From UHGV virus genome UHGV-0812067: a DNA stretch of 17,252 bases; one strand, given 5' to 3'. Positions 1 to 17,114 of this stretch are shown one piece after another. The first letter of the stretch is position 1. Each line of letters opens with the position of its first letter. Made by a program: the position numbers and the translations under genes. The notes under the pieces are model-generated. The model saw only the letters and a program-made list of their open reading frames with translations. It did no database searches and was not told where the DNA came from. The DNA comes from a virus.

Positions 1-2
1 TG

Positions 3-482
3 TGTGCCTTGAGAGACGCCGACCAGACCCGACGTGCTGCGGAAGAGTGTAAGTTCAGCTTTAATGAGTCAGAATTAATCTCTTCTATAGGTATTGCACC
101 AGTTAAGCAAGAGATAATAAAGGATGAAGGAATAACTAAGCGGCAATATGAATTCAGAAGAGAATTATCTTCTGAAGAAATGCTTAGTGATGACGCTGAT
201 GAAAAATATGAGCCGCAGTTTTATATATCTGTTTATAATCCATCATGCCCACAAAAGATTATTGTTTGGTTTTTCAAAGACAATAAAAACACAATGGATT
301 TAAGTAATGAGGTCCTTGCTGGTAGAGCGTTCAAGTATTTAACTGGTGTTAATGAAAGTATTTTTGAAAATAAAATGAAAAAGTTTTTAAAGGTACAGTC
401 ATTTGAATCTTTTGATGAAAGGACAGATTCTAAATTTATAAAGAGTGGTGATATTTATTCCATTGATGTTCAACTCAGATAG
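3..482 (+). CDS. 3' portion of an AT-rich ORF of unknown function (5'-truncated by window edge)
   Basis: Frame is open from position 3 (no upstream in-frame stop) to TAG at 480-482. Coding DNA is strongly AT-rich after about position 60, unlike the GC-rich tail genes downstream. Protein is not recognisable to me. Confidence 0.4.
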   Translation, partial: CALRDADQTRRAAEECKFSFNESELISSIGIAPVKQEIIKDEGITKRQYEFRRELSSEEMLSDDADEKYEPQFYISVYNPSCPQKIIVWFFKDNKNTMDLSNEVLAGRAFKYLTGVNESIFENKMKKFLKVQSFESFDERTDSKFIKSGDIYSIDVQLR

Positions 483-501
483 TAATTAAAAATATTAGGT
501 T

Positions 502-5573: not shown

Positions 5574-6536
5574 ATGCATCGTATAGACACGAAAACCGCG
5601 CAGAAGGATAAGTTCGGCGCGGGTAAGAACGGTTTTACCCGTGGTAACCCCCAGACCGGCACACCTGCCACCGATCTGGATGATGACTACTTTGACATGT
5701 TGCAGGAAGAACTTTGTAGCGTGGTGGAGGCCTCCGGTGCCAGCCTGGAGAAAGGGCGGCATGACCAGCTGCTTACCGCACTTCGTGCGCTGCTGTTAAG
5801 CCGCAAGAATCCGTTTGGCGATATCAAATCGGACGGCACGGTGGAAACGGCTCTCGAAAACCTTGGTTTGGGAGATGCCAACGGATATGTGGGCCGAAAG
5901 GTTGCGGAAAAATGGATAACGACATCTGGGACATATACGCCTACACCGGGAACAAAAAAAATCAGGGTAACGATAATTGGCGGAGGCGGCGGCGGGGGCA
6001 GTGGGCAAACAAACTCTGCTGGATACGTATCTGCCGGGTCTGGTGGAGGTGCCGGTGGTGTGGCTCGTAAAACAATTGACGTTACCAGTGTTTCATCAGT
6101 GTCCGTAACCATCGGTTCAGGCGGTAATCCAGGTGTCTTCTCTTCAAATCAGCCTGGTGATGGTGGTACCACAAGTTTTGGCTCCTACATGACAGCTGGC
6201 GGGGGTGGCCGAGGAAATAACTGTGGCTCGGTAGCATTCGGTGTTACTCAGTTAATTGCGAACGGTGGCGGCGGGGTTGGTTCAGGAGGTGATATCAACA
6301 CCATCGGCGGCTCTGGCGGCCCGGCGATAATTCTGGGACAGGGGTACACCAGCGGCGGCGGTGGCAACTCAATAGTAGCTGGAGGTGGACAGCCTATTGC
6401 AACAACGTCATCAATGAGTGGAATTGATGGCTCATATGGTTCTGGTGGGTCAGGCGCTTACATTCTGGCCAGCGGTAGTGAAAAAAATGGCGGACGTGGT
6501 GGTGATGGCGTTTGTATCGTTGAGGAGTATGCATAA
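5574..6536 (+). CDS. tail fibre protein, expressed form in this orientation (constant N-terminus + glycine-rich variable C-terminus)
   Basis: ATG at 5574 with GGAG (5563-5566). N-terminus [40 protein letters not shown]... is the conserved phage tail-fibre N-terminal domain. From about residue 98 the protein is extremely Gly/Ser-rich. The inversion crossover site lies inside the gene at 5851-5876. Confidence 0.85.
5851..5876. repeat. invertase crossover site, left (gix/cix/pix/hix-like, 12-2-12 layout)
   Basis: ctctcgaaaacc tt ggtttgggagat: two half-sites resembling the invertase half-site consensus (..TC..AAACC) around a central TT. The 11 bp ttggtttggga (5863-5873) is the exact reverse complement of 7677-7687. 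Confidence 0.7.
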
Positions 6537-6943
6537 TGAATAACATTTATGCTGTTGTTGAAAATGGCGTGGTGATCAACATCGTCGTCTGGGATGGGAA
6601 ATCGGAATGGCAACCGGTAACTGGGGAGGCTGTTTCTTGTTCTGCTCAGGTTGGTATCGGCTGGTTGTATGATGGAAGTAATTTCACCCAGCCACCAACA
6701 CCCGAGCAGACTCCAGAAGAATTAGCAGCGGCAAACATGGCTAAAGCTGCATCTGAGTATGAACGTGCCAGCGTAGTCATTGTAGCGCTAAATGAGCAGA
6801 TCGAAGACGAGGACTACGCAGGGACTACGGAAGAGGCCGTGAAATCAGAATTGGCCGCATGGACTGACTATCGTAAACAGCTTCGCGCTTACATTAAGGC
6901 CGGGGATGGCAGCCAGACACTACCATCCTTTGTAATGATTTAA
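6536..6943 (+). CDS. tail fibre assembly/chaperone-like protein for the current fibre form
   Basis: ATG overlaps the fibre stop (TAATG at 6534-6538) with GAGGAG upstream (6522-6527). C-terminus ...AWTDYRKQLRAYIKA resembles the Tfa C-terminal W-x-x-YR motif. The N-terminal part is not classic Tfa. Confidence 0.55.
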   Translation: MNNIYAVVENGVVINIVVWDGKSEWQPVTGEAVSCSAQVGIGWLYDGSNFTQPPTPEQTPEELAAANMAKAASEYERASVVIVALNEQIEDEDYAGTTEEAVKSELAAWTDYRKQLRAYIKAGDGSQTLPSFVMI

Positions 6944-7323
6944 ACTGGTCGTGTAGGCCACTCTATATCGGGAGCCGTGCTGGTATCAGTTCGCATCACG
7001 GCAACCCGATAATCTTCCCACGAGGTTAATCTAGCAGCTTCTTCATCAGTCGCTATTCCTGCGGTTACTGCATATTGAAGAGGTGATATTGCAAAAGTTG
7101 CTGCCGCCAGCAGCTCTGCTTTTTTCTGATTTGCAATCGCTACTTGCTGATCATGAGTCAGTGGCGCAGGGTCGCTCAGTTCGGGAAAACCACTTTCGTT
7201 TGCAATAATTACCTTTCCTCCCGCCTGCCCAATCACCAATTCTGACCAGTAGTCGTCGGTAATCTCCACCTGGCTATCACTCATCCGCCCAACCGTAAAT
7301 CCAATCTCTGTGGAATAAAACAT
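6940..7323 (-). CDS. tail fibre assembly protein (Tfa), alternative-orientation copy
   Basis: C-terminus ...ATDEEAARLTSWEDYRVAVMRTDTSTAPDIEWPTRPV matches the conserved Tfa C-terminal motif. Its stop codon overlaps the convergent + strand stop within TTTAAA (6940-6943). Confidence 0.8.
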   Translation of the reverse strand: MFYSTEIGFTVGRMSDSQVEITDDYWSELVIGQAGGKVIIANESGFPELSDPAPLTHDQQVAIANQKKAELLAAATFAISPLQYAVTAGIATDEEAARLTSWEDYRVAVMRTDTSTAPDIEWPTRPV

Positions 7324-7685
7324 TACGCACTCCCCATAGCCATATATTTAAAAGAAAAAGATCCGTTCAGATTTGCCCCTGCGGCATCCTTTCCGTAAAT
7401 TGTCACAACCGAACCTGATTCAGGAATGGCGGCATAACTAACAACGCCTGAGCCAATATCAGTCGGGATAAAAGTAAAACCAGTGCTGGGGTAAGCCAAT
7501 GGAAGAGTAAAGCTCAGTACGCCGTTAACAAAATTTCCAGATCCACTGCCCTCCATTATTCTACGGTTTCCTGCAATCACTATTGAAGTAAATACGTTTG
7601 AAGCGCCAGCGTATGTGAAGTTTGACATGTCTGGAATTTGACCAGTTCCTGTACCCACATCTTTTTTGGCTGCTGTTCCCAAACC
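7323..7685 (-). CDS. silent alternative tail-fibre C-terminal segment (Sv'-like), lacks its own N-terminus in this orientation
   Basis: Minus-strand frame is open from the stop at 7692-7694 through the crossover site to TAA at 7323-7325. It reads ...KVGLGTAAKKDVGTGTGQ..., with GLG encoded by the same ggtttggga as NLGLGD in the + fibre, in the same frame. The TTG 'start' in the ORF track is probably not a real start. Confidence 0.65.
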   Translation of the reverse strand, partial: GLGTAAKKDVGTGTGQIPDMSNFTYAGASNVFTSIVIAGNRRIMEGSGSGNFVNGVLSFTLPLAYPSTGFTFIPTDIGSGVVSYAAIPESGSVVTIYGKDAAGANLNGSFSFKYMAMGSA

Positions 7686-7699
7686 AACCTTTCAAATAT
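7674..7699. repeat. invertase crossover site, right
   Basis: tgttcccaaacc aa cctttcaaatat: the left half-site matches the half-site consensus well, the right half is degenerate. It carries the 11-bp inverted repeat tcccaaaccaa (7677-7687). Confidence 0.65.
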
Positions 7700-7726
7700 T
7701 TTTCTGAATCAGGTGATATTTCGCCT

Positions 7727-7753
7727 CTTCTCCTGTTTTTACAACAGGAGAAG
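7727..7753 (+). promoter_or_regulatory. hairpin sequestering the invertase Shine-Dalgarno
   Basis: cttctcctgt (7727-7736) and acaggagaag (7744-7753) form a perfect 10-bp inverted repeat with loop ttttaca. The right arm contains AGGAG (7746-7750), the RBS for the ATG at 7759. Confidence 0.4.
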
Positions 7754-7758
7754 CACTC

Positions 7759-8322
7759 ATGATTTACGGGTATGTTCGTGTATCAACAAATCATCAGGAT
7801 ACAGAGTTGCAACGTCTTGCACTTGAGTCAGCTGGCTGTGAGCGAATTTATGAAGAATATGCCAGTGGCAGAACAGCTAATCGCCCTGTGTTAAAGGAAT
7901 TAATTACGGTGATGAAAAGTGGAGATGAGTTGATTGTCTGGAAGTTAGATCGGATAGGGAGAAATGTGCTGCATGCGCTATTGATGTTTCAAAATCTGCA
8001 CGAAAAAGGTGTTAATTTTCGGAGTATTACAGATGGCGTAGACCTGAAAACAGCAAGTGGTCGCTATAATTTCCGTAATATTCTTTCTGCTGCGCAGTAT
8101 GAATCTGATTTGAATAGCGAGCGAACTTTAGCTGGTTTGGCTATTGCCAGATCCAAAGGCCGGATTGGTGGGCGTAGACCGAAGTTTAGCGACGAGCAGT
8201 GGCAACAGATGGGAGCGCTCATAGCGGCAGGGAAATCACGGCGTTATGTTGCACGTATCTATAACGTTGGGCTATCAACCCTATATAAACGATTTCCTGT
8301 TACTGGCATTCAAACGAAATAA
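7759..8322 (+). CDS. serine DNA invertase (Gin/Cin/Pin/Hin family resolvase-type recombinase)
   Basis: MIYGYVRVSTNHQDTELQ... contains the catalytic Ser motif (YVRVS), VWKLDRIGR, GRIGGRRPK and a C-terminal HTH ...GLSTLYKRFP. It is 187 aa and sits adjacent to the invertible segment. Confidence 0.9.
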   Translation: MIYGYVRVSTNHQDTELQRLALESAGCERIYEEYASGRTANRPVLKELITVMKSGDELIVWKLDRIGRNVLHALLMFQNLHEKGVNFRSITDGVDLKTASGRYNFRNILSAAQYESDLNSERTLAGLAIARSKGRIGGRRPKFSDEQWQQMGALIAAGKSRRYVARIYNVGLSTLYKRFPVTGIQTK

Positions 8323-8775: not shown

Positions 8776-9873
8776 TCAAGGGGTCTTATTTCTGCTCCTT
8801 TGGAGCTCTTCAAAACGATTATGTAAAGATTTCGGATACAGTTCGGTATATACCTGCCATAGCACGTTTAATGAACGATGCCCTGTAACCTGGGCTACTT
8901 CCTCAATACTAAAACCAGCCTCAAATAAGCGACTTGCCCCTTCTCTACGCAAATCATGGTATCGCAGATCCTTAATACCTAATTTGCTTCTTACCCTCTG
9001 AAATCCCGCAGTAACAGAAGTGCTGTTATATGGAAAAATGAATTCCGATTTTTTGGGCTGTCGTTGGACGATATCCCAGGCTTCCCCAAGCAAGGCTACT
9101 TTCATGTGGTTGCCTTCCTTTTTGCGTGGATCTTTCCTGTCTCTTACGAGTATAGATTTTTGTTCCTGGTCGAGATCTTCCCATCGTAACCGGCATACTT
9201 CTCCGATTCGCATACAGGACCACACAGAAAATTTGAGGATATCAACGAACGGAATTTTTGAGCATTTATGAGTAGATCGTTGTTGAAGGCCTTCAATGAG
9301 CATGTCCAGTTCATCAGATGCTGGTCTACGATTACGACGGTTTGATTTACCAATCAAACCAAGTTTAAGTAGATATGGACGAGCACTTTTCGCCGGGTTT
9401 GATGTGTAATTAATTCCGTATACAGGTTTGGCCGCATCCAGAACACTGCCAAGATAACTAACATCGTGGCTGACTGTTGCTGGACCTGCGCCAGCGTTGT
9501 TTCTTAGCCTGCAATGTTCAATTACGTCATTTTCTGTCAGTTCAGATAGTTTGATCGCGGAGATGTCACTATCCATAAGCAGTTCCAGCACATATCTTTT
9601 AGTACGGCCTGCTTTACCTCCGGCATTTGGGTCATTTAAATATTTGTGTAGTAAGTCACGGACTGTAAGTCCGTCAACTGCATTTGATGATGGAATGCCA
9701 TATAGATCTAATTCCATCACTTTCTGTGTGCCCCATGTTTTGGCATGAGCATGTTTAGGGAATGTTTTGCTTTCCCTGTAAGTGATAACACCTTTTTCTT
9801 TGATAATCACATTACAGCGATAGCGTGGTGTGCCATCGGATTTTAGTCGTTTCTCTATGTTATAGTACGCCAT
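8776..9873 (-). CDS. tyrosine site-specific recombinase (phage integrase)
   Basis: 365 aa. The C-terminal catalytic region has the R...HxxR...Y arrangement (...LRYHDLRREGASRL...VTGHRSLNVLWQVYTELYP). GAGG lies 7 nt upstream of the ATG at 9873. Confidence 0.9.
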   Translation of the reverse strand: MAYYNIEKRLKSDGTPRYRCNVIIKEKGVITYRESKTFPKHAHAKTWGTQKVMELDLYGIPSSNAVDGLTVRDLLHKYLNDPNAGGKAGRTKRYVLELLMDSDISAIKLSELTENDVIEHCRLRNNAGAGPATVSHDVSYLGSVLDAAKPVYGINYTSNPAKSARPYLLKLGLIGKSNRRNRRPASDELDMLIEGLQQRSTHKCSKIPFVDILKFSVWSCMRIGEVCRLRWEDLDQEQKSILVRDRKDPRKKEGNHMKVALLGEAWDIVQRQPKKSEFIFPYNSTSVTAGFQRVRSKLGIKDLRYHDLRREGASRLFEAGFSIEEVAQVTGHRSLNVLWQVYTELYPKSLHNRFEELQRSRNKTP

Positions 9874-9892
9874 TACACGACCTCGTTATTTC

Positions 9893-9929
9893 GGGTTCCC
9901 ATAAAACGTGGGAACCTGTGCGGGAACCT
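9893..9929. repeat. cluster of GGGAACC(T) motifs upstream of the integrase gene (candidate arm-type or regulatory binding sites)
   Basis: gggttccc (9893-9900, inverted), gggaacct (9910-9917) and gggaacct (9922-9929), lying 20-56 bp upstream of the integrase start. Confidence 0.45.
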
Positions 9930-10105
9930 AATGCGAGAAAAATAGCCTGAAATGTTCAAAAATGCACGATAATCATGAAACACAAAAAATTAATCAAACC
10001 AGCGTGATGCCTGAAAAAACTGGTGTTTACTGGAATTCTCGGTTTAGCATTGCTCCTATGCTCGATAGGATGTACCGTTTTTGAAAAACAAGTAGTTATA
10101 CACTT

Positions 10106-10319: not shown

Positions 10320-10892
10320 ATGTTTTGCGAAGAAAAAGTAGCTCAAATGGCTGCATACCTACTTCTTAAGAGAGGTGGGCGCATGGCATATCTGAAATTG
10401 ATGAAGCTGCTCTATCTGTCTAACCGCCAGTCGATTTTGAAGCATGGCAGGATGATCGGCGAAGATAGCCTTTACTCTATGAAATTTGGACCAGTCATGT
10501 CGAATACGCTGAACTTGATTCGCGGTAAGGCTGAAGGCATTGGTGACTACTGGTACAACTTGATAGAGACGAACGGGCATAATGTATCGTTGCGTTCAGA
10601 TCCGAGGGAAATGGATGCAGACGAGGTCTTTGATGAATTGAGTCGTGCAGATATCCGGATTTTAGATGAAATCTATTCTCGGTATGGGCATATGAACCGA
10701 TTTGATCTCGCAAATATGACGCATTTAGAAAGCGTTTGTCCAGAGTGGCACGATCCTGGCAATTCTCGTAAGCCTATAGACCTGAAAGAAATGCTGATCA
10801 GTGAGGGTAAAAGCGAGGATGAGGCTAATCGCATAATTGGCAAAATGGAAGAATCTCAGAAACTTAAGGAATTTTCTTTGCAATTATCATGA
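10320..10892 (+). CDS. Panacea-domain (DUF4065, PanA/SocA/GepA-like) protein, putative antitoxin or sensor component
   Basis: ATG at 10320 with GAGG (10308-10311, 8-nt spacer). Residues about 20-70 (...AYLKLMKLLYLSNRQSILKHGRMIGEDSLYSMKFGPVMSNT...) fit the Panacea signature (KLqKLLYL ... w/y-GPV). Coding DNA is low-GC relative to flanking phage genes. Confidence 0.75.
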   Translation: MFCEEKVAQMAAYLLLKRGGRMAYLKLMKLLYLSNRQSILKHGRMIGEDSLYSMKFGPVMSNTLNLIRGKAEGIGDYWYNLIETNGHNVSLRSDPREMDADEVFDELSRADIRILDEIYSRYGHMNRFDLANMTHLESVCPEWHDPGNSRKPIDLKEMLISEGKSEDEANRIIGKMEESQKLKEFSLQLS

Positions 10893-11308
10893 CGGATTAT
10901 CAGCCATACAGGAAAGGAACTGTGCTTGCCCCAACTGGACCATGCAATCATCTTCATGTGATTTGTAATGATCCTGTTTATTACCCCGTTAACGATTGTT
11001 ATTGTGTTTTAGTTGTTAATATTTCTAGTATCAAGGATGGTGTCCCCCACGATCCGTCTTGCGTCTTGAATTCTGGTGATCATCGCTTTATCAAGCATCC
11101 AAGTTATGTTGTTTACGCTGAAGCTATAATTTGGCGAGTGGATAACATGGTTAGAAAGCAGCGATCGGGTGAGATTTCTGTTCATGATGATATGCCAGAA
11201 GCTACATTCAATAGAATTCTGGACGGTTTTGATATCTCTGATGAAGTTACGCCAAAGAACCTTAAATTTAAAAATAAATATTGCGTATCATCTATTGATG
11301 ATGAGTAA
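10889..11308 (+). CDS. hypothetical 139-aa protein translationally coupled to the Panacea-domain gene, candidate toxin/effector
   Basis: ATGA overlap at 10889-10892 with the upstream stop. Protein MTDYQPYRKGTVLAPTGPCNHLHVICNDPVYYPVNDCYC... has Cys/His-rich motifs and I recognise no family. Lowest GC in the window. Confidence 0.65.
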   Translation: MTDYQPYRKGTVLAPTGPCNHLHVICNDPVYYPVNDCYCVLVVNISSIKDGVPHDPSCVLNSGDHRFIKHPSYVVYAEAIIWRVDNMVRKQRSGEISVHDDMPEATFNRILDGFDISDEVTPKNLKFKNKYCVSSIDDE

Positions 11309-11521: not shown

Positions 11522-11543
11522 TCATAGCTGGTGCTTTTTGAAA

Positions 11544-11573
11544 GCCCGCCATCTGGCGGGTTTTTCTTTTTTA
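11544..11573 (+). terminator. rho-independent terminator
   Basis: gcccgcc-atct-ggcgggt GC-rich stem followed by tttttctttttt. Confidence 0.75.
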
Positions 11574-11585
11574 TCGGTGCGGAAC

Positions 11586-11858
11586 TCAACTATTTTTCTG
11601 TTTGTTCGTTCTGACCCTTTCCCATTCAATTCTGCCTTCTTCACGCCGCTGGTCTATATACTCAGCAAGATCCTGAATGTTGATACAGCGCTTCGCTTTC
11701 TGTGATGTTCCTACACGGTAAGTCGGGATCGGCAACTGACAGGCATTTGCTTTCGCTTCTGCTGTGTTAGGGCTCATACCGAAATACTTTTGGCATACCG
11801 CTGACAGCTCGATGTTAGGCGTGTTGAACTCAGCCATAAGTAAAAACAAAGTATTCAT
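11586..11858 (-). CDS. PrtN-family (pyocin activator-like) small DNA-binding protein; possible regulator or recombination directionality factor
   Basis: 90 aa, MNTLFLLMAEFNTPNIELSAVCQKYFGMSPNTAEAKANACQLPIPTYRVGTSQKA..., the characteristic N-terminus of PrtN-like proteins common in enterobacterial prophages. GGAG lies 7 nt upstream of the ATG. Confidence 0.7.
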   Translation of the reverse strand: MNTLFLLMAEFNTPNIELSAVCQKYFGMSPNTAEAKANACQLPIPTYRVGTSQKAKRCINIQDLAEYIDQRREEGRIEWERVRTNKQKNS

Positions 11859-11896
11859 AGACGTTCTCCATACAACCTGGCTGCACCCAGGGGAAA

Positions 11897-12469
11897 TTAC
11901 AGGTCGCTGCTGGTGGCCGGAATCAACTTCTGCCAGATCGCGGACACGTATTTTGCTTGATGTCGCGCATCGGCCAGTGCGTTATGTGCAACCCCATCGA
12001 ATGGCATATCTCGCTTTGGATCGAAACCCACCACTCTGCCTAATGTGACGATGGTTCTGACGTCGTGATCGTTCCAAAATTGCCACGGGCAAACCTGGCC
12101 GGTGCGCTCATATGCGCCGCGCAATATAACGTTGTCGAAAGTAGCTCCATTGCCCCAAACTTTTAAATATTTGGGGTTATCAGAATGCCGATTAATGAAA
12201 TGGCTCAGTTCAGATAGGGCAGACGATATCGGCATCGCATCATCAACACAGATTGCTGATCGTGCTTCTGAGCTTTGTCTTAACCACCACAGAATAGTGT
12301 CACCATCCGGCACCGCTCCCTGCTCCATAGCGCTTTCAAGGTTAACGGCGGTGTAAAACTCCTGACCCAGTTCACCGCTTTGCGGATCGAAGAACACGGC
12401 ACCAATGGAGACGATAGGGGCATTCGGTCTTTTGCCCATAGACTCAAGGTCGATCATTAAATTGTTCAC
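11897..12469 (-). CDS. DnaQ-like 3'-5' exonuclease (DEDDh family)
   Basis: Motif I MIDLESMG, central FDN and C-terminal H-x4-D (VAHNALADA). GTG at 12469 has AGGAG 10 nt upstream; an alternative ATG is at 12457. Confidence 0.75.
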   Translation of the reverse strand: MNNLMIDLESMGKRPNAPIVSIGAVFFDPQSGELGQEFYTAVNLESAMEQGAVPDGDTILWWLRQSSEARSAICVDDAMPISSALSELSHFINRHSDNPKYLKVWGNGATFDNVILRGAYERTGQVCPWQFWNDHDVRTIVTLGRVVGFDPKRDMPFDGVAHNALADARHQAKYVSAIWQKLIPATSSDL

Positions 12470-12470
12470 G

Positions 12471-12914
12471 TTAAATATTCTCCTGTTTTGGTGCTGCTTT
12501 AAGCATTGCGGCGCGGCAGGCGTTCCATCCCCTGACTTCAGCGATTGCAGCTACAGCGTCTATGGCATGCATTTTCGACGCCTCTGGCATCGGTTTTTCA
12601 TCCGGCACTACTGGCGCTGACTGCGGGGCGGCCCAGAGCTTATTGACGCCATCCGGCAGATTATTAAAATCAAACGTACTGCCCGGAATCCTGCCAGCCT
12701 GAATCCTGTCGTCTCCGTCAATCTCGATGAAAAATACTGGCTCTGCGTTCCTCGATGCTAGCACCTCATCAATCACATTCAACATATCACCGAGAATGTA
12801 TGCTCTGTTCCCGCCGTTTGAGTACTGGGTATCATGTTGCAGGTGCTCGCGTATCTGGTGCAGGCGATCGACAGATACAGGACCGTTCACCGGGTGGTTT
12901 GTGCTTTTAGTCAT
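12471..12914 (-). CDS. hypothetical early-region protein
   Basis: ORF track extends to 12968 from a non-ATG codon. I prefer the ATG at 12914 (MTKSTNHPV...), which has GGAGG 6 nt upstream and overlaps the upstream stop (ATGACTAA). Confidence 0.55.
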   Translation of the reverse strand: MTKSTNHPVNGPVSVDRLHQIREHLQHDTQYSNGGNRAYILGDMLNVIDEVLASRNAEPVFFIEIDGDDRIQAGRIPGSTFDFNNLPDGVNKLWAAPQSAPVVPDEKPMPEASKMHAIDAVAAIAEVRGWNACRAAMLKAAPKQENI

Positions 12915-13251
12915 TCCATGCCTCCAGCTCGTTCTGGATTTCCTCGTCGACCTCGTCATTTGTGGCATCTTCGTTCAGATAGTCGCGCGCCTCTTTGAGA
13001 TACTGTTCACGGCGTTCGTGGTACCAGGCAGAGAACTCCGGCGACCACCCTCGATTAGCCCCCTGAAAATCTACCATCGCATTATCCTCTGCCATACGCT
13101 CGACCATGCAGTCGGCAGTTGTCAGGGCGCATTCCCGGATGTAACTGCGAAGGTGGTGCTTACGCCAGTACGGACTGTATTTTGAATCGCAGCGGCTTTT
13201 AAATTCGACAGTCCAGCGACGGATGCAACGTGCGTTCAGTGATTTACTCAT
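12907..13251 (-). CDS. hypothetical early-region protein (acidic C-terminus)
   Basis: 114 aa. GGGAG lies 7 nt upstream of the ATG at 13251, which overlaps the upstream stop as ATGA. Confidence 0.55.
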   Translation of the reverse strand: MSKSLNARCIRRWTVEFKSRCDSKYSPYWRKHHLRSYIRECALTTADCMVERMAEDNAMVDFQGANRGWSPEFSAWYHERREQYLKEARDYLNEDATNDEVDEEIQNELEAWND

Positions 13252-13502
13252 TGTGTTGCTCCCTGTCTGGCTCTATTCAATAACTGGTTAAACATCATGG
13301 TTAGGCTGTTACTGCACCCAAATGGCATATCGTTAACACGGTATGTTGGAATGCCCTTGCGAACACCAGACTTCACGATCCTGCCAGTGGTAAAGAGTTG
13401 CGATAACGAACCAGCGATCGAAGCTGTTTTTTTGTTTAAACCCTTAGCTATTTCAGCGCTGGTGGCGTTGGGGTGAGCCTGGAGATATTCAAATACGGTC
13501 AT
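13248..13502 (-). CDS. small putative winged-helix DNA-binding protein
   Basis: 84 aa. N-terminus ...HPNATSAEIAKGLNKKTASIAGSLSQLFTTGRIV... looks like a wHTH fold; this is inference from the sequence pattern only. ATGA-coupled on both sides. Confidence 0.5.
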   Translation of the reverse strand: MTVFEYLQAHPNATSAEIAKGLNKKTASIAGSLSQLFTTGRIVKSGVRKGIPTYRVNDMPFGCSNSLTMMFNQLLNRARQGATQ

Positions 13503-13666
13503 GGCGTTTTACCTTTACGTTCCTGTTCCAGTTGCACCAGAGACTCTTTTAATGCTGCGAACGTAGCTTCCAGTCTGGTGGCGACTTCGCTCATAAGCGG
13601 TGCATGCTTTGGTGGCAATTCAGCAACGGAGGAAAAAGCCTCCGCTACGAGTTCTTTTACCTTCAT
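13499..13666 (-). CDS. small 55-aa hypothetical protein (not in the ORF track)
   Basis: Hand translation on the minus strand: MKVKELVAEAFSSVAELPPKHAPLMSEVATRLEATFAALKESLVQLEQERKGKTP. Its ATG overlaps the HD gene stop (ATGA) and its TGA overlaps the next ATG (ATGA). Confidence 0.45.
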   Translation of the reverse strand: MKVKELVAEAFSSVAELPPKHAPLMSEVATRLEATFAALKESLVQLEQERKGKTP

Positions 13667-14202
13667 GCGGCGCATTGGCGCTGCTCCATCAACTCGTTAA
13701 AGCGATTGATGAACATGCCGTATGACTGGCCAGGACGAACTGGGTTGATAATGAATAAATCCGTTGGGACAACTCCCTCGAGGCATGGCCAAATGGAACC
13801 TTCGTCAATCTCAAAATCGCGGCGTTCGCTGGCGAGCATCACCAGGTCGGCATATTTCACGGTTGGGTGTTGCTCAGTTGGTAGACCGAACTTCTGCCGA
13901 ATGGCTGCGTCCACACGAGCTTCGATTGCCTGGTAATCCGGAAGCAGGCGCTTAAGTGGGGAGGGGATGTCCTGCAGGTAGGCTTCAGCAGCATCATGAA
14001 GCAGTGCTTCTAATGCAAACTCCTGCGGAACGAGGTGGCTGGTTAAAACGCTATGCTGGCCGACACTGTAAAACTCAGGAAGATGCCCTGCAAAGCGGCA
14101 GATATGAGACAACGCGGTAGCAATATCCTCGATCACGATATCGTCCTGTTGGATATCGAGGTAATTAAAATGTTTGCCGGATAATGTCTGAATGTAGCTC
14201 AT
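13663..14202 (-). CDS. HD-domain phosphohydrolase
   Basis: H...HD signature (...ALSHICRFAGH...LLHDAAEAY...). I prefer the ATG at 14202 (MSYIQ...), which has GGAG 6 nt upstream, over the track's GTG at 14229. Confidence 0.75.
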   Translation of the reverse strand: MSYIQTLSGKHFNYLDIQQDDIVIEDIATALSHICRFAGHLPEFYSVGQHSVLTSHLVPQEFALEALLHDAAEAYLQDIPSPLKRLLPDYQAIEARVDAAIRQKFGLPTEQHPTVKYADLVMLASERRDFEIDEGSIWPCLEGVVPTDLFIINPVRPGQSYGMFINRFNELMEQRQCAA

Positions 14203-14310
14203 GGTTTTCTCCATATTGGCGCGCTGCACCGCGCCATTAAATTAATGAATTGCTGAATTTAGCGTGCAGCAACCCAACCCATGCTTATGGGGGTAATTGT
14301 TGCCTGGTGT

Positions 14311-15228
14311 TTATCGCTTGGCTTCGCCGCCGAGAGAGGTTGTTAATCCGTTAATGAGAGAGATAAGCTCGCCGGTCATCAGAACAAAGTCAGCGTCGAA
14401 CCGCTGAGCCGCATCCTCACGGTCGATATCGTCGTTTTGTTCTGTAATCTCATTAGAGAACTTAAGGCGTTTGATGCTGCCGTCATCGCAAAGAACGAAC
14501 TGAATGCGCTGTTGCCAGTCGATAGACAGCTTTGTAACTACTTTGCCAGCTTCCAGATGCACATGAATTTCGTCACTGACCAGAGTCTGTTTTTTAAAGC
14601 GTCCAATACCGCCATCTTCAAGAATAGCTTTCAGTTCGGCTTCATCACCCAGGCCAAAGCCAGCAGGCGCACTACCGGAACGAACCCATTCGGTCATAGT
14701 TAGTTCGATCGGCGTTTCCATAGTCAGCGGTACCACCGGGAGAGAACCGAGAGTTTTACGAAGCAGGGCCAGTGAGTCTTCGGCACGTTTAGCGCTGGCT
14801 GCATCAACCATGATCAGACCGTCGGTGACGTTGATCCACAAACTAACAGTCGAGTTTTTGGAGAACGCCCGAGGAAGCAGGGAGTGCAACACTTCATCAC
14901 GCAGCGAATCTTTCTCAGTTTTTTTGAGGCGACGCCCCTGATCGGATTCCAGACGCGACACACGCTTGCGCAGTTCTTCAGCAATGACAGGAGATGGCAG
15001 TATTTTTTCTTCCCGGCGAATAACCAACAACACTTGATTATTGACAGTGTGATGCAAGCGATCTGACAGCTGACCAAGTGGTGATACCCAACCGGTTTTT
15101 GCCATATCCTGGCTACCGCATGGAGTGAAGCGAAATAGTTCAAGCTGCTGTTCCAGCTCTTCCTGGTTGATGGTGAAATCGCGACTAATGCGATACACCA
15201 ACATATTTTTGAAAAACGGATTGTTCAT
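14311..15228 (-). CDS. rdgC: RdgC-family recombination-associated protein, phage-encoded homologue
   Basis: 305 aa, [18 protein letters not shown]...[19 protein letters not shown]...KILPSPVI...[22 protein letters not shown]...LGSLPVVPL...RLKF..., collinear with E. coli RdgC along its whole length. Confidence 0.9.
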
Positions 15229-15693
15229 TCTCGGTTCCTCAACGCCTCTGCACCGGCGCTAAAAAGTTAGTTTCTCCATACACAACAGAGAAGGGCACCT
15301 GCATTGGTCGGCGGCTTGCAGAGACCGCTTTCTTTTTGCCCGGGTGGATTGGGTTATGAGCCCGTCGTCCGGTGATGCTCTTCTCTGTTTTGTAAAAAGG
15401 ACGGTACCAGCCGGAAGCAAGGGTACAAACTGGTACCGCCAGGACTACACACAGCATAAAGTTGTGGTGCCGGGTGCCTCCCGGTGCCTGGCGAAGGTTG
15501 CACACCAGGCGGGTGGGTATCCACAGAAGGTCGACTGTCAGCCTCAACCTTAACCCGCGTGCGCTGAGCCGCATTCACCACAACGCTAAGGATTCTCTCT
15601 GGTTGAAAATACTTAGCTGTTATGTGCCTGTCTTTTCACCACTTCAGGCTCGGTGGTATCCTTTTAAGCCCGTATACATAAAAGGAAAATCAA

Positions 15694-15939: not shown

Positions 15940-16132
15940 AAAAAGGCCATTTCCATTCAGGGTCTGATGGAAATACTTCAGCCTGTTCCAAAGCACGGCG
16001 TAAAGAGAATACAACTCCAGCCATAATCTGATGTTTCCCATTGGTCCAGCTATCGCTGCTCTGATCTACAGGAGCGGCTATGTCGTATGACCAAACGACT
16101 TCACCACTATTGTTTAAAATCTGGACTTTCAT
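15857..16132 (-). CDS. hypothetical 91-aa ORF, first ORF downstream of the putative leftward early promoter
   Basis: ATG at 16132 with GGAGG 12 nt upstream (long spacer). The C-terminal third overlaps the + ORF and contains a hairpin (15949-15974), so the true extent is uncertain. Confidence 0.3.
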   Translation of the reverse strand: MKVQILNNSGEVVWSYDIAAPVDQSSDSWTNGKHQIMAGVVFSLRRALEQAEVFPSDPEWKWPFSICPNSESTFQKIGQKVALEEHQPTVS

Positions 16133-16249
16133 TTTGTTCTTTAACCTCCAGATACGGGCGTTTAATTGCCCCGCCGAACAGCTCTTTTCCGCAATAGCTG
16201 CAATGTCTTTCGCGCATCAGCCTGCGCATTCACCACAACTCTAAAAACA

Positions 16250-16303
16250 AATGTAGGACATCCAACATGTGAGTGTCAAGAGTTTATGTTGGTTATCCTA
16301 CAT
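16250..16303 (-). promoter_or_regulatory. putative leftward early promoter (PL-like) with two 18-bp operators
   Basis: On the minus strand: TTGACA (complement of 16274-16279), 18-bp spacer, TACATT (complement of 16250-16255). Operator atgtaggacatccaacat (16251-16268) overlaps the spacer and -10; a second operator atgttggttatcctacat (16286-16303) lies upstream. Confidence 0.6.
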
Positions 16304-16318
16304 AAAAAGATAGGCTCA

Positions 16319-16346
16319 TAAAAAAACCGGGGATACCCCGGTTTTG
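16319..16346 (-). terminator. rho-independent terminator downstream of the repressor gene (bidirectional shape)
   Basis: ccgggg-ata-ccccgg stem (16327-16341), flanked by an A7 run (16320-16326, a U-tract on the minus strand) and TTTT (16342-16345) on the plus strand. Confidence 0.8.
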
Positions 16347-16365: not shown

Positions 16366-17019
16366 TCAAAAATCCATTATTACTTGTTTGACAAGACCAA
16401 CTATTCTGCAGTTCTCACCGCATTCAATAGTTTTATAGTTAGGATTTAGTGGGACGAGATACCTGTTCGGCCAGTCCTCAACAAATTTTTTGAGTGTCGC
16501 TTCTTGCCCACCATTGATATGGGCAACAACGATTTTTCCGTTAATACACTCTGTATCAATAATATCTGGCTCTACGATAACGATAGAACCTTCTGGTATC
16601 GATGGTGAGCCGAGGGGATTGGTCATTGAATCACCACGGACCCGTAGTGCAAATGCCATTTCTGATACAAGGGCGGTAGTATAAACCCACTCTTCAGCAT
16701 CTTCTTTCCTGACACCAGGCTCCGTCATTGTCCATGAACCCGCCTGAACCCACGAGATGAGGGGGACTTTTTTAACTGCGAATATTTCAGGTTTTAGATT
16801 TATCTTTGGTTCAGGCGAGCCTTTTCCGCTAACAAGCCACAGAGGATCGCATTTAAGTGCGTTGGCTAGGGCTTGAAGGTTGGCTCCATTTGGTTGGTAG
16901 TCGTCCTTTTCCCATCCAGTAACCGTGACACGGTTCACACCAGTCAAATCAGCCAGTGCTTGTTGTGTCAGGTTCAGTTCTTTTCGCCTTTGGCGAATAC
17001 GATCACTCATGTTCATCAT
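16366..17019 (-). CDS. CI-like phage repressor (N-terminal HTH + C-terminal LexA/S24-type autocleavage domain)
   Basis: 217 aa. N-terminal HTH (RIRQRRKELNLTQQALADLTGVNRVTVTGWEKD); C-terminal S24 peptidase features (...ALRVRGDSMTNP... with a downstream Lys). No strong SD, as is common for repressor genes. Confidence 0.9.
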   Translation of the reverse strand: MMNMSDRIRQRRKELNLTQQALADLTGVNRVTVTGWEKDDYQPNGANLQALANALKCDPLWLVSGKGSPEPKINLKPEIFAVKKVPLISWVQAGSWTMTEPGVRKEDAEEWVYTTALVSEMAFALRVRGDSMTNPLGSPSIPEGSIVIVEPDIIDTECINGKIVVAHINGGQEATLKKFVEDWPNRYLVPLNPNYKTIECGENCRIVGLVKQVIMDF

Positions 17020-17083
17020 GTAGGCAATCCTACCACATGCCCATGTAGGATTCTTGACATTGGTATGTTGGATATCCTACATT
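17018..17083 (+). promoter_or_regulatory. rightward operator/promoter region (OR/PR-like) between the repressor and Cro-like genes
   Basis: TTGACA (17054-17059), 18-bp spacer, TACATT (17078-17083). Operator atgttggatatcctacat (17065-17082) is 17/18 identical to the left operator. A related site atgtaggcaatcctacca (17018-17035) overlaps the repressor start codon, and there is a half-site atgtaggat (17043-17051). Confidence 0.65.
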
Positions 17084-17114
17084 TCTGCTTAACGTAATTT
17101 AACGGGAGACAGAA

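What the first reader, a model, noticed from the sequence alone, without database searches (positions are those of the whole stretch)
11586..15228. Tightly coupled leftward early operon pairing a DEDDh exonuclease, an HD hydrolase and an RdgC homologue
Seven of the eight genes from RdgC to the exonuclease are joined by overlapping stop/start codons (ATGA at 13663-13666, 13499-13502 and 13248-13251; ATGACTAA at 12907-12914) or single-base gaps, implying stoichiometric co-expression. Two of them were found only by hand translation. RdgC is a RecA modulator, and a nucleotide phosphohydrolase plus a 3'-5' exonuclease in the same early operon suggests a recombination or nucleic-acid processing module, possibly counter-defence. 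The hypothetical proteins in between are unrecognised.
Basis: partly seen in the sequence, partly recalled or inferred. Interest (0 to 1): 0.35.

Follow-up and report, generated by a model that had tools for sequence, protein, structure and literature searches.

The report
Ordinary mosaic prophage early-left operon
This is the repressor-controlled leftward early operon of a common SfV/mEp460-type E. coli prophage, a patchwork of exchangeable accessory genes whose named members already have their own literature, so it is real but ordinary.

Summary
The genes and the quoted overlap motifs are real. The tightly joined run is six genes (HD to exonuclease, five junctions), not seven of eight. RdgC is 108 nt upstream of the HD gene, and the excisionase is 38 nt past the exonuclease. 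The tail operon in the same window is packed just as tightly.

The window is a circularly joined SfV/mEp460-like phage with a dusA-type attachment site. The operon runs from a CI-controlled pL (16279-16250) to a PrtN-type excisionase. It matches yfdP-yfdQ-yfdR-yfdS-yfdT-torI of E. coli K-12 cryptic prophage CPS-53 and orf32-28 of SfV.

- The HD protein is 64% identical, full length, to YfdR. Published work shows YfdR binds DnaA and, with YfdQ plus YfdS or YfdT, blocks oriC initiation when overexpressed.
- The exonuclease is a T4 DexA homologue. A published E. coli homologue, EcD, degrades 5hmC DNA and protects against T4.
- RdgC (67% identical to host RdgC) occupies the slot that holds YfdQ in relatives.
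- The proteins in between are a winged-helix protein, a short member of the mosaic DUF550/DUF551 group, and two orphans.

In about 160 related loci only HD+p58 is constant. RdgC, the exonuclease and the middle cargo vary, so a dedicated recombination or counter-defence module is not supported.

The parts
16249..16303 (-). pL promoter (TTGACA 16279, 18-nt spacer, TACATT 16250) bracketed by two CI operators
   Evidence: Promoter scan. The operator palindrome ATGTAGGATAnCCAACAT occurs only at 16251-16268, 16286-16303 and at oR 17065-17082, against 0.02 expected by chance. The 40-nt segment 16242-16281 is an inverted copy of the pR region 17052-17091.
16318..16343 (-). Intrinsic terminator just after cI (stem ACCGGGG/CCCCGGT followed by a T-run)
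   Evidence: Read directly from the sequence. It separates the cI transcript from pL. The consensus terminator scan did not list it.
15392..15614 (-). STnc100/PasD-like structured RNA ending in a stem-loop plus U-run, between pL and rdgC
   Evidence: Rfam RF02076, full-length match, 43.1 bits against a gathering score of 47, E 5e-7. The minus strand folds with z -4.2, the plus strand with z -1.7. A similar element sits at the same place in SfV.
14311..15228 (-). RdgC homologue, 305 aa
   Evidence: PF04381 at 8e-116. NF001460 equivalog at 513 bits, cut-off 501. Collinear with E. coli RdgC (2OWL), 203 of 301 residues identical.
14203..14310 (-). 108-nt spacer and leader of the HD gene, holding the near-invariant hairpin GCGCGGTGCAGCGC (14221-14234) and the SD GGAG
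   Evidence: Alignment of eight loci with different upstream genes. Sequence read.
13663..14202 (-). HD phosphohydrolase, 179 aa, orthologue of CPS-53 YfdR
   Evidence: 64% identity over 178 aa to K-12 YfdR, E 1e-89. phrog_318 at 9e-97. Atu1052 (2GZ4) at 4e-13 with the H...HD motif aligned. The ATG at 14202 is the public gene call.
13499..13675 (-). p58, a small protein of unknown function whose start overlaps the HD stop
   Evidence: phrog_12248 at 1e-32, function unknown. Found next to HD in 72 of 80 HD-anchored loci at 50-96% identity.
13248..13502 (-). p84, a small winged-helix (MarR-like) DNA-binding protein
   Evidence: phrog_1687 at 7e-25. Weak Pfam winged-helix matches (PafC, FeoC, FaeA, TrmB). 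Relatives in Stx phages are annotated as MarR family.
12907..13251 (-). p114, an orphan four-helix protein confined to Enterobacteriaceae prophages
   Evidence: phrog_6675 at 3e-68, function unknown. 274 database clusters; the listed relatives are nearly all 114 aa, none has a Pfam domain apart from one longer 160-aa member, and those with a source name come from Enterobacteriaceae. AlphaFold model with pLDDT 84. No match in PDB or BFVD, all E>1.
12471..12914 (-). p147, a short member of a mosaic family whose longer relatives carry DUF551 or DUF550
   Evidence: 2239 relatives; the 120 listed range from 84 to 258 aa, and some carry PF04448 or PF04447. Modular alignment. The ATG at 12914 has GGAGG 6 nt upstream and is the public gene call.
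11897..12469 (-). DEDDh 3'-5' exonuclease, 190 aa, homologue of T4 DexA
   Evidence: PF16473 at 2e-74, covering the whole model. T4 DexA (8KEL/8KEN) at 1e-10. Catalytic D7, E9, D112, H162 and D167 align with DexA D7, E9, D119, H186 and D191.
11586..11858 (-). PrtN-family excisionase (recombination directionality factor), the last gene of the operon
   Evidence: PF11112 at 3e-24. phrog_1300 'excisionase' at 3e-40. It holds the same position as torI in CPS-53 and xis in SfV.
11540..11565 (.). GC-rich hairpin between the operon end and the convergent Panacea toxin-antitoxin genes
   Evidence: Terminator scan, 11 pairs with a T-run on the plus strand.

Best explanation
The region is the CI-repressed early-left (pL) accessory operon of an SfV/mEp460-type temperate phage that uses a dusA attachment site.

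Shown:
- pL and its operators lie at 16249-16303, directly after the cI terminator.
- Transcription leftward meets two small ORFs, an STnc100-like RNA with a terminator, and rdgC. A conserved 108-nt leader follows, then a translationally coupled chain of HD, p58, p84, p114, p147 and the exonuclease. The excisionase comes last.
- The layout matches gene for gene in position with yfdP-yfdQ-yfdR-yfdS-yfdT-torI of E. coli K-12 CPS-53, with orf32-orf28-xis of SfV, and with genes 035-025 of mEp460.
- The operon is a mosaic. Only HD+p58, with the HD leader, is a stable unit. The slot upstream of HD holds RdgC, a divergent RdgC, or the unrelated YfdQ (DUF2303). The exonuclease sits next to whichever excisionase is present. 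The cargo in between varies.

Inferred from characterised homologues:
- After induction the YfdR-like HD protein binds DnaA domain I and, with its neighbours, damps host oriC initiation. It may also be a weak 5'-deoxynucleotidase.
- RdgC forms a DNA-encircling dimer that restrains RecA on DNA.
- The DexA-like exonuclease trims DNA 3' to 5', either scavenging DNA or attacking modified DNA of superinfecting T-even phages.

These are separate accessory functions that share a promoter, not one machine.
For: Context:
- The window matches a 43.7-kb circular E. coli replicon (tail, int, dusA' fragment, Xis ... RdgC, cI, cro) over 66% at 96.4% identity, and dusA-integrated prophages.
- pL and the operators are defined.
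- The corresponding gene order is seen in CPS-53, SfV and mEp460.

Gene identities:
- HD is 64% identical to YfdR.
- YfdR binds DnaA in a manner dependent on Phe46 and competes with DiaA and DnaB. The minimal gene set for inhibiting initiation is yfdQ + yfdR + (yfdS or yfdT). SfV orf29-31 are named as homologues (PMC4776307).
- The exonuclease is a DexA homologue with an intact DEDDh site. EcD and DexA biology is described in PMC12153337.
- RdgC is full length and 67% identical to 2OWL.

Mosaicism:
- In 132 HD-containing loci the ORF immediately upstream of HD is RdgC in 53, DUF2303 in 44, and a divergent RdgC in 6.
- Nissle 1917 and ARL09/232 share the RdgC-to-p114 block but have different cargo before the exonuclease.
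- KpF5 pairs RdgC with a ParB-like gene and has neither HD nor the exonuclease.
- Mu-like and Burkholderia phages carry the HD gene without either partner.

Literature: lambdoid early-left regions sometimes carry RdgC near cI and DnaQ-type nucleases near int.
Against: - No expression or biochemical data exist for this phage.
- The DnaA-binding role of YfdR was shown only on overexpression, and its authors note it could be an artefact.
- At 64% identity, conservation of the DnaA contact is not assured.
- The window lacks YfdQ, YfdS and YfdT, which were needed for the CPS-53 phenotype.
- An intrinsic terminator at about 15392 lies between pL and rdgC, so expression of the whole chain from pL needs readthrough or antitermination. 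That has not been shown.
- RdgC-HD adjacency persists at 71-74% RdgC identity. This could reflect a functional link rather than simple linkage.
Confidence: 0.72

Rival explanations
1. RdgC, the HD hydrolase and the DEDDh exonuclease form one stoichiometric recombination or nucleic-acid-processing module, possibly a counter-defence device.
For: - All three act on DNA or nucleotides and share one operon.
- 30 of 79 RdgC-anchored loci contain all three.
- Five consecutive tight junctions run from HD to the exonuclease.
Against: - RdgC is not coupled to the chain; the gap is 108 nt.
- The three genes assort independently and the cargo between HD and the exonuclease varies.
- The HD family occurs alone in Mu-like, jumbo and Gram-positive phages.
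- No annealing protein is present.
- PADLOC gave only one weak match, to a Cas-associated DEDDh model.
- The published survey excludes these genes from Rec modules.
- The same tight packing is seen in the tail genes.
Confidence: 0.08
2. [RdgC or YfdQ] + YfdR-like HD + the small downstream protein(s) form a real functional unit that shuts down host replication initiation. Here RdgC is a non-homologous substitute for YfdQ.
For: - yfdQ, yfdR and yfdS or yfdT are all required for the CPS-53 phenotype.
- The slot upstream of HD is filled by RdgC, a divergent RdgC or YfdQ in 103 of 132 loci, always with a leader-sized gap. That gap is 93-144 nt in most loci and about 380-480 nt in a few.
- The adjacency survives roughly 30% protein divergence while the flanking cI types change.
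- The HD leader is conserved.
Against: - About 29 of 132 HD loci have neither gene immediately upstream.
- Distant phages carry HD alone.
- The YfdQST proteins did not bind YfdR or DnaA stably.
- RdgC also occurs without HD.
Confidence: 0.22
3. The exonuclease is a prophage-borne defence (HREX-type) that degrades 5hmC-modified DNA of superinfecting T-even phages, rather than serving the phage's own DNA metabolism.
For: - It is a DexA homologue.
- The E. coli homologue EcD degrades T4 DNA, spares unmodified DNA at 25 C and protects cells.
- The window protein has Ala at position 78, as reported for EcD, and keeps the Trp equivalent to DexA W152.
- Like EcD as described, it is shorter than DexA (190 aa against 227).
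Against: - The gene lies at the far end of a CI-repressed operon with no promoter-like site of its own, so expression in a lysogen is doubtful.
- The residue equivalent to DexA D169 is uncertain in the alignment.
- I could not retrieve the EcD sequence, so identity with it is not established.
Confidence: 0.25
4. RdgC acts like lambda RexA. It would be expressed from the cI transcript in the lysogen and serve exclusion or control of induction, as suggested in PMC12315714.
For: - RexA and RdgC are structural homologues.
- RdgC is the first sizeable gene to the left of cI.
- The suggestion appears in the literature.
Against: - In this window a strong terminator (16318-16343), pL with two CI operators (16249-16303) and a second terminator (about 15392) lie between cI and rdgC.
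- rdgC carries an internal stop in ARL09/232 and is truncated in two IMG/VR loci. A maintained lysogen function would not be expected to decay in this way.
Confidence: 0.08

Closest known systems
yfdP-yfdQ-yfdR-yfdS-yfdT-torI region of E. coli K-12 cryptic prophage CPS-53, and orf32-orf28-xis of Shigella phage SfV
   Same: - It holds the same position, between cI/pL and the excisionase.
- An HD gene (64% identical) is preceded by a leader of about 110-130 nt with the same GCGCGGTGCAGCGC hairpin.
- The next gene overlaps the HD stop codon.
- An excisionase comes last, and an STnc100-like RNA lies upstream in SfV.
   Different: - RdgC replaces YfdP and YfdQ.
- p58, p84, p114, p147 and the exonuclease replace YfdS and YfdT, with no detectable similarity to them.
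- The excisionase is PrtN-type rather than TorI-type.
Early-left operon of coliphage mEp460 (genes 035-025)
   Same: - It has a YfdR-like HD gene and the same DexA-like exonuclease. Over the stretch that includes the exonuclease gene, DNA identity is 78%.
- The exonuclease is followed by a PrtN-type excisionase and a similar integrase region.
- The genes form a tightly packed chain.
   Different: mEp460 has YfdP and YfdQ upstream of HD instead of RdgC, a YfdS-like gene after HD, and different middle cargo.
E. coli RdgC (PDB 2OWL) and phage-encoded RdgC homologues
   Same: Full-length, collinear and 67% identical. It scores above the NCBIfam equivalog cut-off. RdgC homologues occur in 410 cultured-phage records.
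   Different: It is phage-borne and repressor-controlled. No data exist on DNA binding or RecA inhibition for this copy.
T4 DexA (8KEL) and the E. coli homologue EcD of the 'HREX' defence
   Same: The same DEDDh fold family (PF16473), with the catalytic residues and the Trp equivalent to W152 conserved. It has Ala78, as reported for EcD.
   Different: It is 37 residues shorter than DexA. The 5hmC-recognition Asp is not confidently aligned. Its activity on modified DNA is untested.
Lambda Red or Rac RecET recombination modules
   Same: The same general location in an early-left operon.
   Different: There is no annealing protein, no 5'-3' exonuclease and no Gam-like gene. The exonuclease here has the opposite polarity class (DnaQ-like, 3'-5').

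Membership tests
RdgC (PF04381 / NF001460) | Full-length match to the family model above the curated cut-off | tested here: met
   Pfam 386.9 bits (cut-off 25), residues 5-302 of 305. NF001460 at 513.3 bits (cut-off 501). 67% identity to 2OWL with no gaps.
RdgC (PF04381 / NF001460) | Ring-shaped dimer that binds DNA and inhibits RecA | not testable with these tools
   Known for E. coli RdgC (cited in PMC11077077).
YfdR-type prophage HD phosphohydrolase | Full-length similarity to E. coli YfdR with the H...HD...D metal-binding motif | tested here: met
   64% identity over 178 of 179 aa, E 1e-89. H50, H69-D70 and D78 can be read in the sequence, and the first three align with the matching residues of Atu1052. 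phrog_318 at 9e-97.
YfdR-type prophage HD phosphohydrolase | Binding to DnaA domain I and inhibition of oriC initiation together with neighbouring genes | not testable with these tools
   Shown for CPS-53 YfdR only (PMC4776307).
YfbR-like 5'-deoxynucleotidase (PF12917 / NF003009) | Score above the curated family threshold | tested here: not met
   Pfam 21.7 bits against a cut-off of 25.9. NF003009 at 17.8 bits against 122. It is related to YfbR but not a member. T5 Dmp is unrelated.
DEDDh / DexA-like 3'-5' exonuclease (PF16473) | Complete domain with the D-E-D-D-h catalytic residues | tested here: met
   249.4 bits, model positions 1-177 of 177. D7, E9, D112, H162 and D167 align with the catalytic residues of DexA.
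HREX defence exonuclease (EcD type) | Loss of the tetramer-forming Asp (DexA D90, A78 in EcD), with the 5hmC-recognition Trp and Asp retained | tested here: inconclusive
   Residue 78 is Ala and W132 matches DexA W152. In the HMMER alignment, however, A78 does not fall opposite DexA position 90, and D169 aligns with V146 in a poorly aligned stretch.
Lambdoid Rec module (Red, RecET, Erf/Abc) | A single-strand annealing protein, usually with a 5'-3' exonuclease or a RecBCD inhibitor | tested here: not met
   No such family was found among the eight proteins in Pfam, PHROGs or NCBIfam.
YfdQ (DUF2303) as a relative of RdgC | Shared fold or profile similarity between DUF2303 and RdgC/RexA | tested here: not met
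PrtN-family excisionase | [quoted passage not shown] | tested here: met
   85.3 bits (cut-off 24.2). phrog_1300 'excisionase'. Its position matches torI and xis in the relatives.
Known anti-phage defence systems (PADLOC) | A match of any operon protein to a defence-system model | tested here: not met
   The only match is a weak one (E 1.7e-4) of the exonuclease to a Cas-associated DEDDh model.
STnc100 sRNA (RF02076) | Score at or above the Rfam gathering threshold | tested here: inconclusive
   43.1 bits against 47, full-length, E 5e-7. The SfV element scores 39.5 bits.

The most novel reading that the evidence does not exclude
RdgC and the unrelated YfdQ (DUF2303) are interchangeable partners of the YfdR-like HD protein. 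Together with the small protein that overlaps the HD stop codon, they would form a conserved phage device that targets DnaA to stop host chromosome initiation after induction. On this reading the DNA-ring protein delivers or holds the HD protein on DNA. That would give both YfdQ and phage RdgC a function, and would make the YfdR-DnaA interaction a genuine phage takeover mechanism rather than an overexpression artefact.
Probability: 0.2. Interest if true: 0.45.

Novelty: new member of a known kind. Interest (0 to 1): 0.17.

Why it matters
It matters little as a discovery. The operon type, its gene families and even the exact proteins are already public, and three of its genes have published functional leads. 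The analysis is useful mainly as a correction and a pointer.

- The 'HD hydrolase' in thousands of enterobacterial prophages is the YfdR orthologue. The PHROG label 'dNMP phosphatase' does not rest on T5 Dmp.
- The exonuclease belongs to the DexA/EcD group.
- In this phage RdgC lies inside the CI-repressed pL unit, which argues against a RexA-like lysogen role here.
- RdgC and YfdQ alternate in front of a conserved YfdR leader. This gives a cheap, specific test of the CPS-53 replication-inhibition model in an inducible phage.

Tried and rejected
- T5 Dmp as the source of the 'dNMP phosphatase' label. T5 Dmp falls in phrog_415 and has no similarity to the window HD protein. My recollection that it is an HD protein was wrong.
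- Fold assignment for p114. The model is confident (pLDDT 84), but nothing matched in PDB or BFVD.
- A frameshifted ClpX-type zinc-finger gene downstream of pL. The ARL09/232 protein has no match in the window. Only the 161 nt next to rdgC and the 129 nt around the cI end and pL are shared, so this idea was dropped.
- YfdS and YfdT as counterparts of p58, p84 or p114. BLASTP found nothing.
- Defence-system models. PADLOC gave nothing useful.
- Not done: the single search of protein representatives, because the orphan families are narrow and that library carries no names; scans of the genome and metagenome contig collections; and structure predictions for p58 and p147.

Full report
**Observation**

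Eight minus-strand ORFs lie between 15228 and 11586.

Using the starts that have good ribosome-binding sites and that match public gene calls, the junction distances are as follows:

| Junction | Distance (nt) |
|---|---|
| RdgC to HD | +108 |
| HD to p58 | -13 |
| p58 to p84 | -4 |
| p84 to p114 | -4 |
| p114 to p147 | -8 |
| p147 to Exo | +1 |
| Exo to Xis | +38 |

The tight chain therefore holds six genes, not seven of eight. RdgC, the gene on which the interpretation leans, is outside it. The tail and baseplate genes of the same window are packed in the same way: six of seven junctions overlap and the seventh is a 3-nt gap. The packing is a general habit of this genome.

All eight exact protein sequences are already in public databases, each on 87 to more than 1000 contigs of E. 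coli, Citrobacter and Salmonella.

**What the window is**

The left part encodes a Mu-type baseplate, tail fibres and a Pin-type invertase. Next come a tyrosine integrase (8776-9873), a Panacea-domain gene pair, the operon under study, and a LexA-like CI repressor at 16366-17019.

The window matches a 43.7-kb circular E. coli replicon with the same order and a dusA fragment next to int. It also matches prophages integrated at dusA. It is therefore a circularly joined SfV/mEp460-like temperate phage.

**The promoter**

An 18-bp palindrome, ATGTAGGATAnCCAACAT, occurs at only three places in 17 kb, against 0.02 expected by chance. One copy is in the cI-cro gap. The other two are at 16251-16268 and 16286-16303, where they bracket a TTGACA-18-TACATT promoter that points leftward.

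A strong hairpin with a T-run (16318-16343) follows cI. So pL lies immediately to the left of the cI terminator, and everything from there to Xis is repressor-controlled.

Between pL and rdgC lie two small ORFs, an opposite-strand ORF, and a structured RNA that matches Rfam STnc100 over its full length (43.1 bits, just below the gathering score). This RNA ends in a terminator at about 15392. No promoter-like site was found in front of rdgC or of the HD gene. Expression of the chain therefore needs readthrough of that terminator. This step is inferred, not shown.

**Gene identities**

- RdgC. It matches the family model end to end and is 67% identical, without gaps, to E. coli RdgC.
- The exonuclease. 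It is a complete PF16473 domain. Its nearest solved relative is T4 DexA (8KEL/8KEN), and all five DEDDh residues are present.
- The last gene. It is a PrtN-family excisionase.
- The HD protein. It is 64% identical over its whole length to YfdR of the K-12 cryptic prophage CPS-53.

The PHROG label for the HD family, 'deoxyribonucleoside 5' monophosphate phosphatase', does not come from T5 Dmp. T5 Dmp is unrelated. The protein also scores below the YfbR family thresholds.

- p84 is a small MarR-like winged-helix protein.
- p147 belongs to a large modular family. It has a conserved N-terminal segment, a variable middle, and a shared 'AIDAVAAIAEVRGWNACRAAML' segment and tail. Longer relatives insert a DUF551 or DUF550 domain.
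- p58 and p114 have no assignable function. The listed p114 relatives are nearly all 114 aa and, where a source is named, come from Enterobacteriaceae. Its model is a confident four-helix protein with no match in PDB or BFVD.

**Comparison with known operons**

CPS-53 reads yfdP, yfdQ (DUF2303), a 127-nt gap, yfdR, yfdS (overlapping the yfdR stop), yfdT and torI (the excisionase). SfV reads orf32 to orf28 and then xis, with an STnc100-like element upstream. mEp460 has the same plan, and also carries the same exonuclease and a PrtN-type excisionase at the left end. The window is a further variant of this plan.

About 70 nt in front of the HD start codon are conserved whichever gene lies upstream. 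This stretch includes the near-invariant hairpin GCGCGGTGCAGCGC. The HD gene therefore travels with its own leader.

**Is it a module?**

I fetched 80 loci anchored on the HD protein and 79 anchored on RdgC from IMG/VR, and located all the operon proteins in them.

| Anchor set | Loci | RdgC | HD | p58 | p84 | p114 | Exo | All seven genes (RdgC to Exo) |
|---|---|---|---|---|---|---|---|---|
| HD-anchored | 80 | 13 | 80 | 72 | 39 | 14 | 48 | 0 |
| RdgC-anchored | 79 | 79 | 53 | 29 | 20 | 15 | 36 | 3 |

- The distance from HD to the exonuclease ranges from 113 to 4921 nt.
- In 132 HD-containing loci the ORF just upstream is RdgC in 53, DUF2303/YfdQ in 44, a divergent RdgC (PF04381, 2e-33) in 6, and something else or nothing in the rest.
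- Klebsiella phage KpF5 pairs RdgC with a ParB-like gene and has neither HD nor the exonuclease.
- Mu-like phages and a Burkholderia phage carry the HD gene alone.
- The HD family is found in 298 cultured-phage records and RdgC in 410.
- rdgC has an internal stop in one close prophage and is truncated in two loci.

These lists are biased towards close relatives. Even so, they show a mosaic with one stable core, HD+p58.

**What the literature adds**

- Noguchi and Katayama (PMC4776307) showed that YfdR binds DnaA through Phe46 of domain I and competes with DiaA and DnaB. Extra copies of yfdQ + yfdR + (yfdS or yfdT) inhibit initiation at oriC. They noted the SfV homologues and suggested a takeover role for the ancestral phage, while warning that the effect might be an overexpression artefact.
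- Kang et al. (PMC12153337) solved DexA. They also showed that EcD, an E. coli homologue, digests 5hmC-containing T4 DNA and protects cells. The window protein shares Ala78 and the recognition Trp, but the equivalence is not established.
- Zheng, Casjens and colleagues (PMC12315714) state that a few lambdoid phages carry RdgC just left of cI and DnaQ-type nucleases near int. They do not count either as Rec-module genes, and they suggest RdgC might be co-transcribed with cI like RexA. In this window the cI terminator and pL lie between cI and rdgC, which argues against that suggestion for this phage.

**Test of one new idea**

**Verdict**

The feature is real and correctly annotated at family level, but it is an ordinary mosaic early-left accessory operon of a well-populated prophage group. 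The proposed recombination or counter-defence module is not supported.

The most interesting reading still open is that [RdgC or YfdQ] + YfdR-like HD + the overlapping small gene act together on DnaA. It has a probability of about 0.2 and can be tested directly with published assays.

Noticed in passing
window 15392-15614 (-): A structured RNA matches Rfam STnc100 over its full length (43.1 bits, gathering score 47) and ends in a terminator, between pL and rdgC. SfV has a similar element at the same place. STnc100/PasD are known prophage sRNAs (bioRxiv 10.64898/2026.05.13.724894).
   Followed up: partly
window 15570-15589 and 16225-16244: A 20-nt direct repeat (95% identical) marks both the 5' end of the STnc100-like element and the start of the pL transcript. 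The 655 nt in between, holding a 40-aa ORF, a 91-aa ORF and an opposite-strand 81-aa ORF, looks like an insertion into a pL-leader/sRNA unit.
   Followed up: no
window 14203-14310 (-), hairpin 14221-14234: The leader of the HD/YfdR gene is conserved whatever gene lies upstream, and includes the near-invariant GCGCGGTGCAGCGC hairpin about 10 nt before the SD. Its function is unknown. It loosely resembles a boxB-type hairpin.
   Followed up: partly
window 16107-16229 (-): The first ORF after pL encodes a 40-aa peptide with an Arg-rich N-terminus (MRRLMRERH) followed by CxxC. It sits where lambdoid phages place N. Related prophages have a different 'ClpX C4 zinc finger' gene here.
   Followed up: no
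window 10320-11308 (+): A Panacea (SocA-like antitoxin) domain gene overlaps a 139-aa ORF with no family match. This is probably a toxin-antitoxin pair, next to the attachment site and convergent with the operon. PADLOC found nothing.
   Followed up: partly
window 8776-10070: The integrase lies across the attachment site (dusA fragment) from the excisionase, so in the integrated prophage int and xis are at opposite ends of the element.
   Followed up: partly
window 6536-8322: Tail-fibre assembly genes lie on both strands (6536-6943 +, 6940-7323 -, 7323-7682 -) next to a Pin/Hin-type invertase (7759-8322). This is probably an invertible host-range segment.
   Followed up: no
window 1-500: GC content is 33% here against 53-60% in the adjacent tail genes. 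The best E. coli matches to the window begin only at about position 36 or about 549. This may be an inserted low-GC gene.
   Followed up: no
L001 9206-10123; L005 and L090: The phage rdgC carries an internal stop in E. coli ARL09/232 and is reduced to a 128-aa C-terminal ORF in two IMG/VR loci. The gene is therefore dispensable in at least some lysogens.
   Followed up: no
PHROG phrog_318 / L163 124-858: The PHROG name 'deoxyribonucleoside 5' monophosphate phosphatase' for the YfdR-like HD family is not backed by T5 Dmp. T5 Dmp falls in a different PHROG (phrog_415) and shows no similarity.
   Followed up: yes
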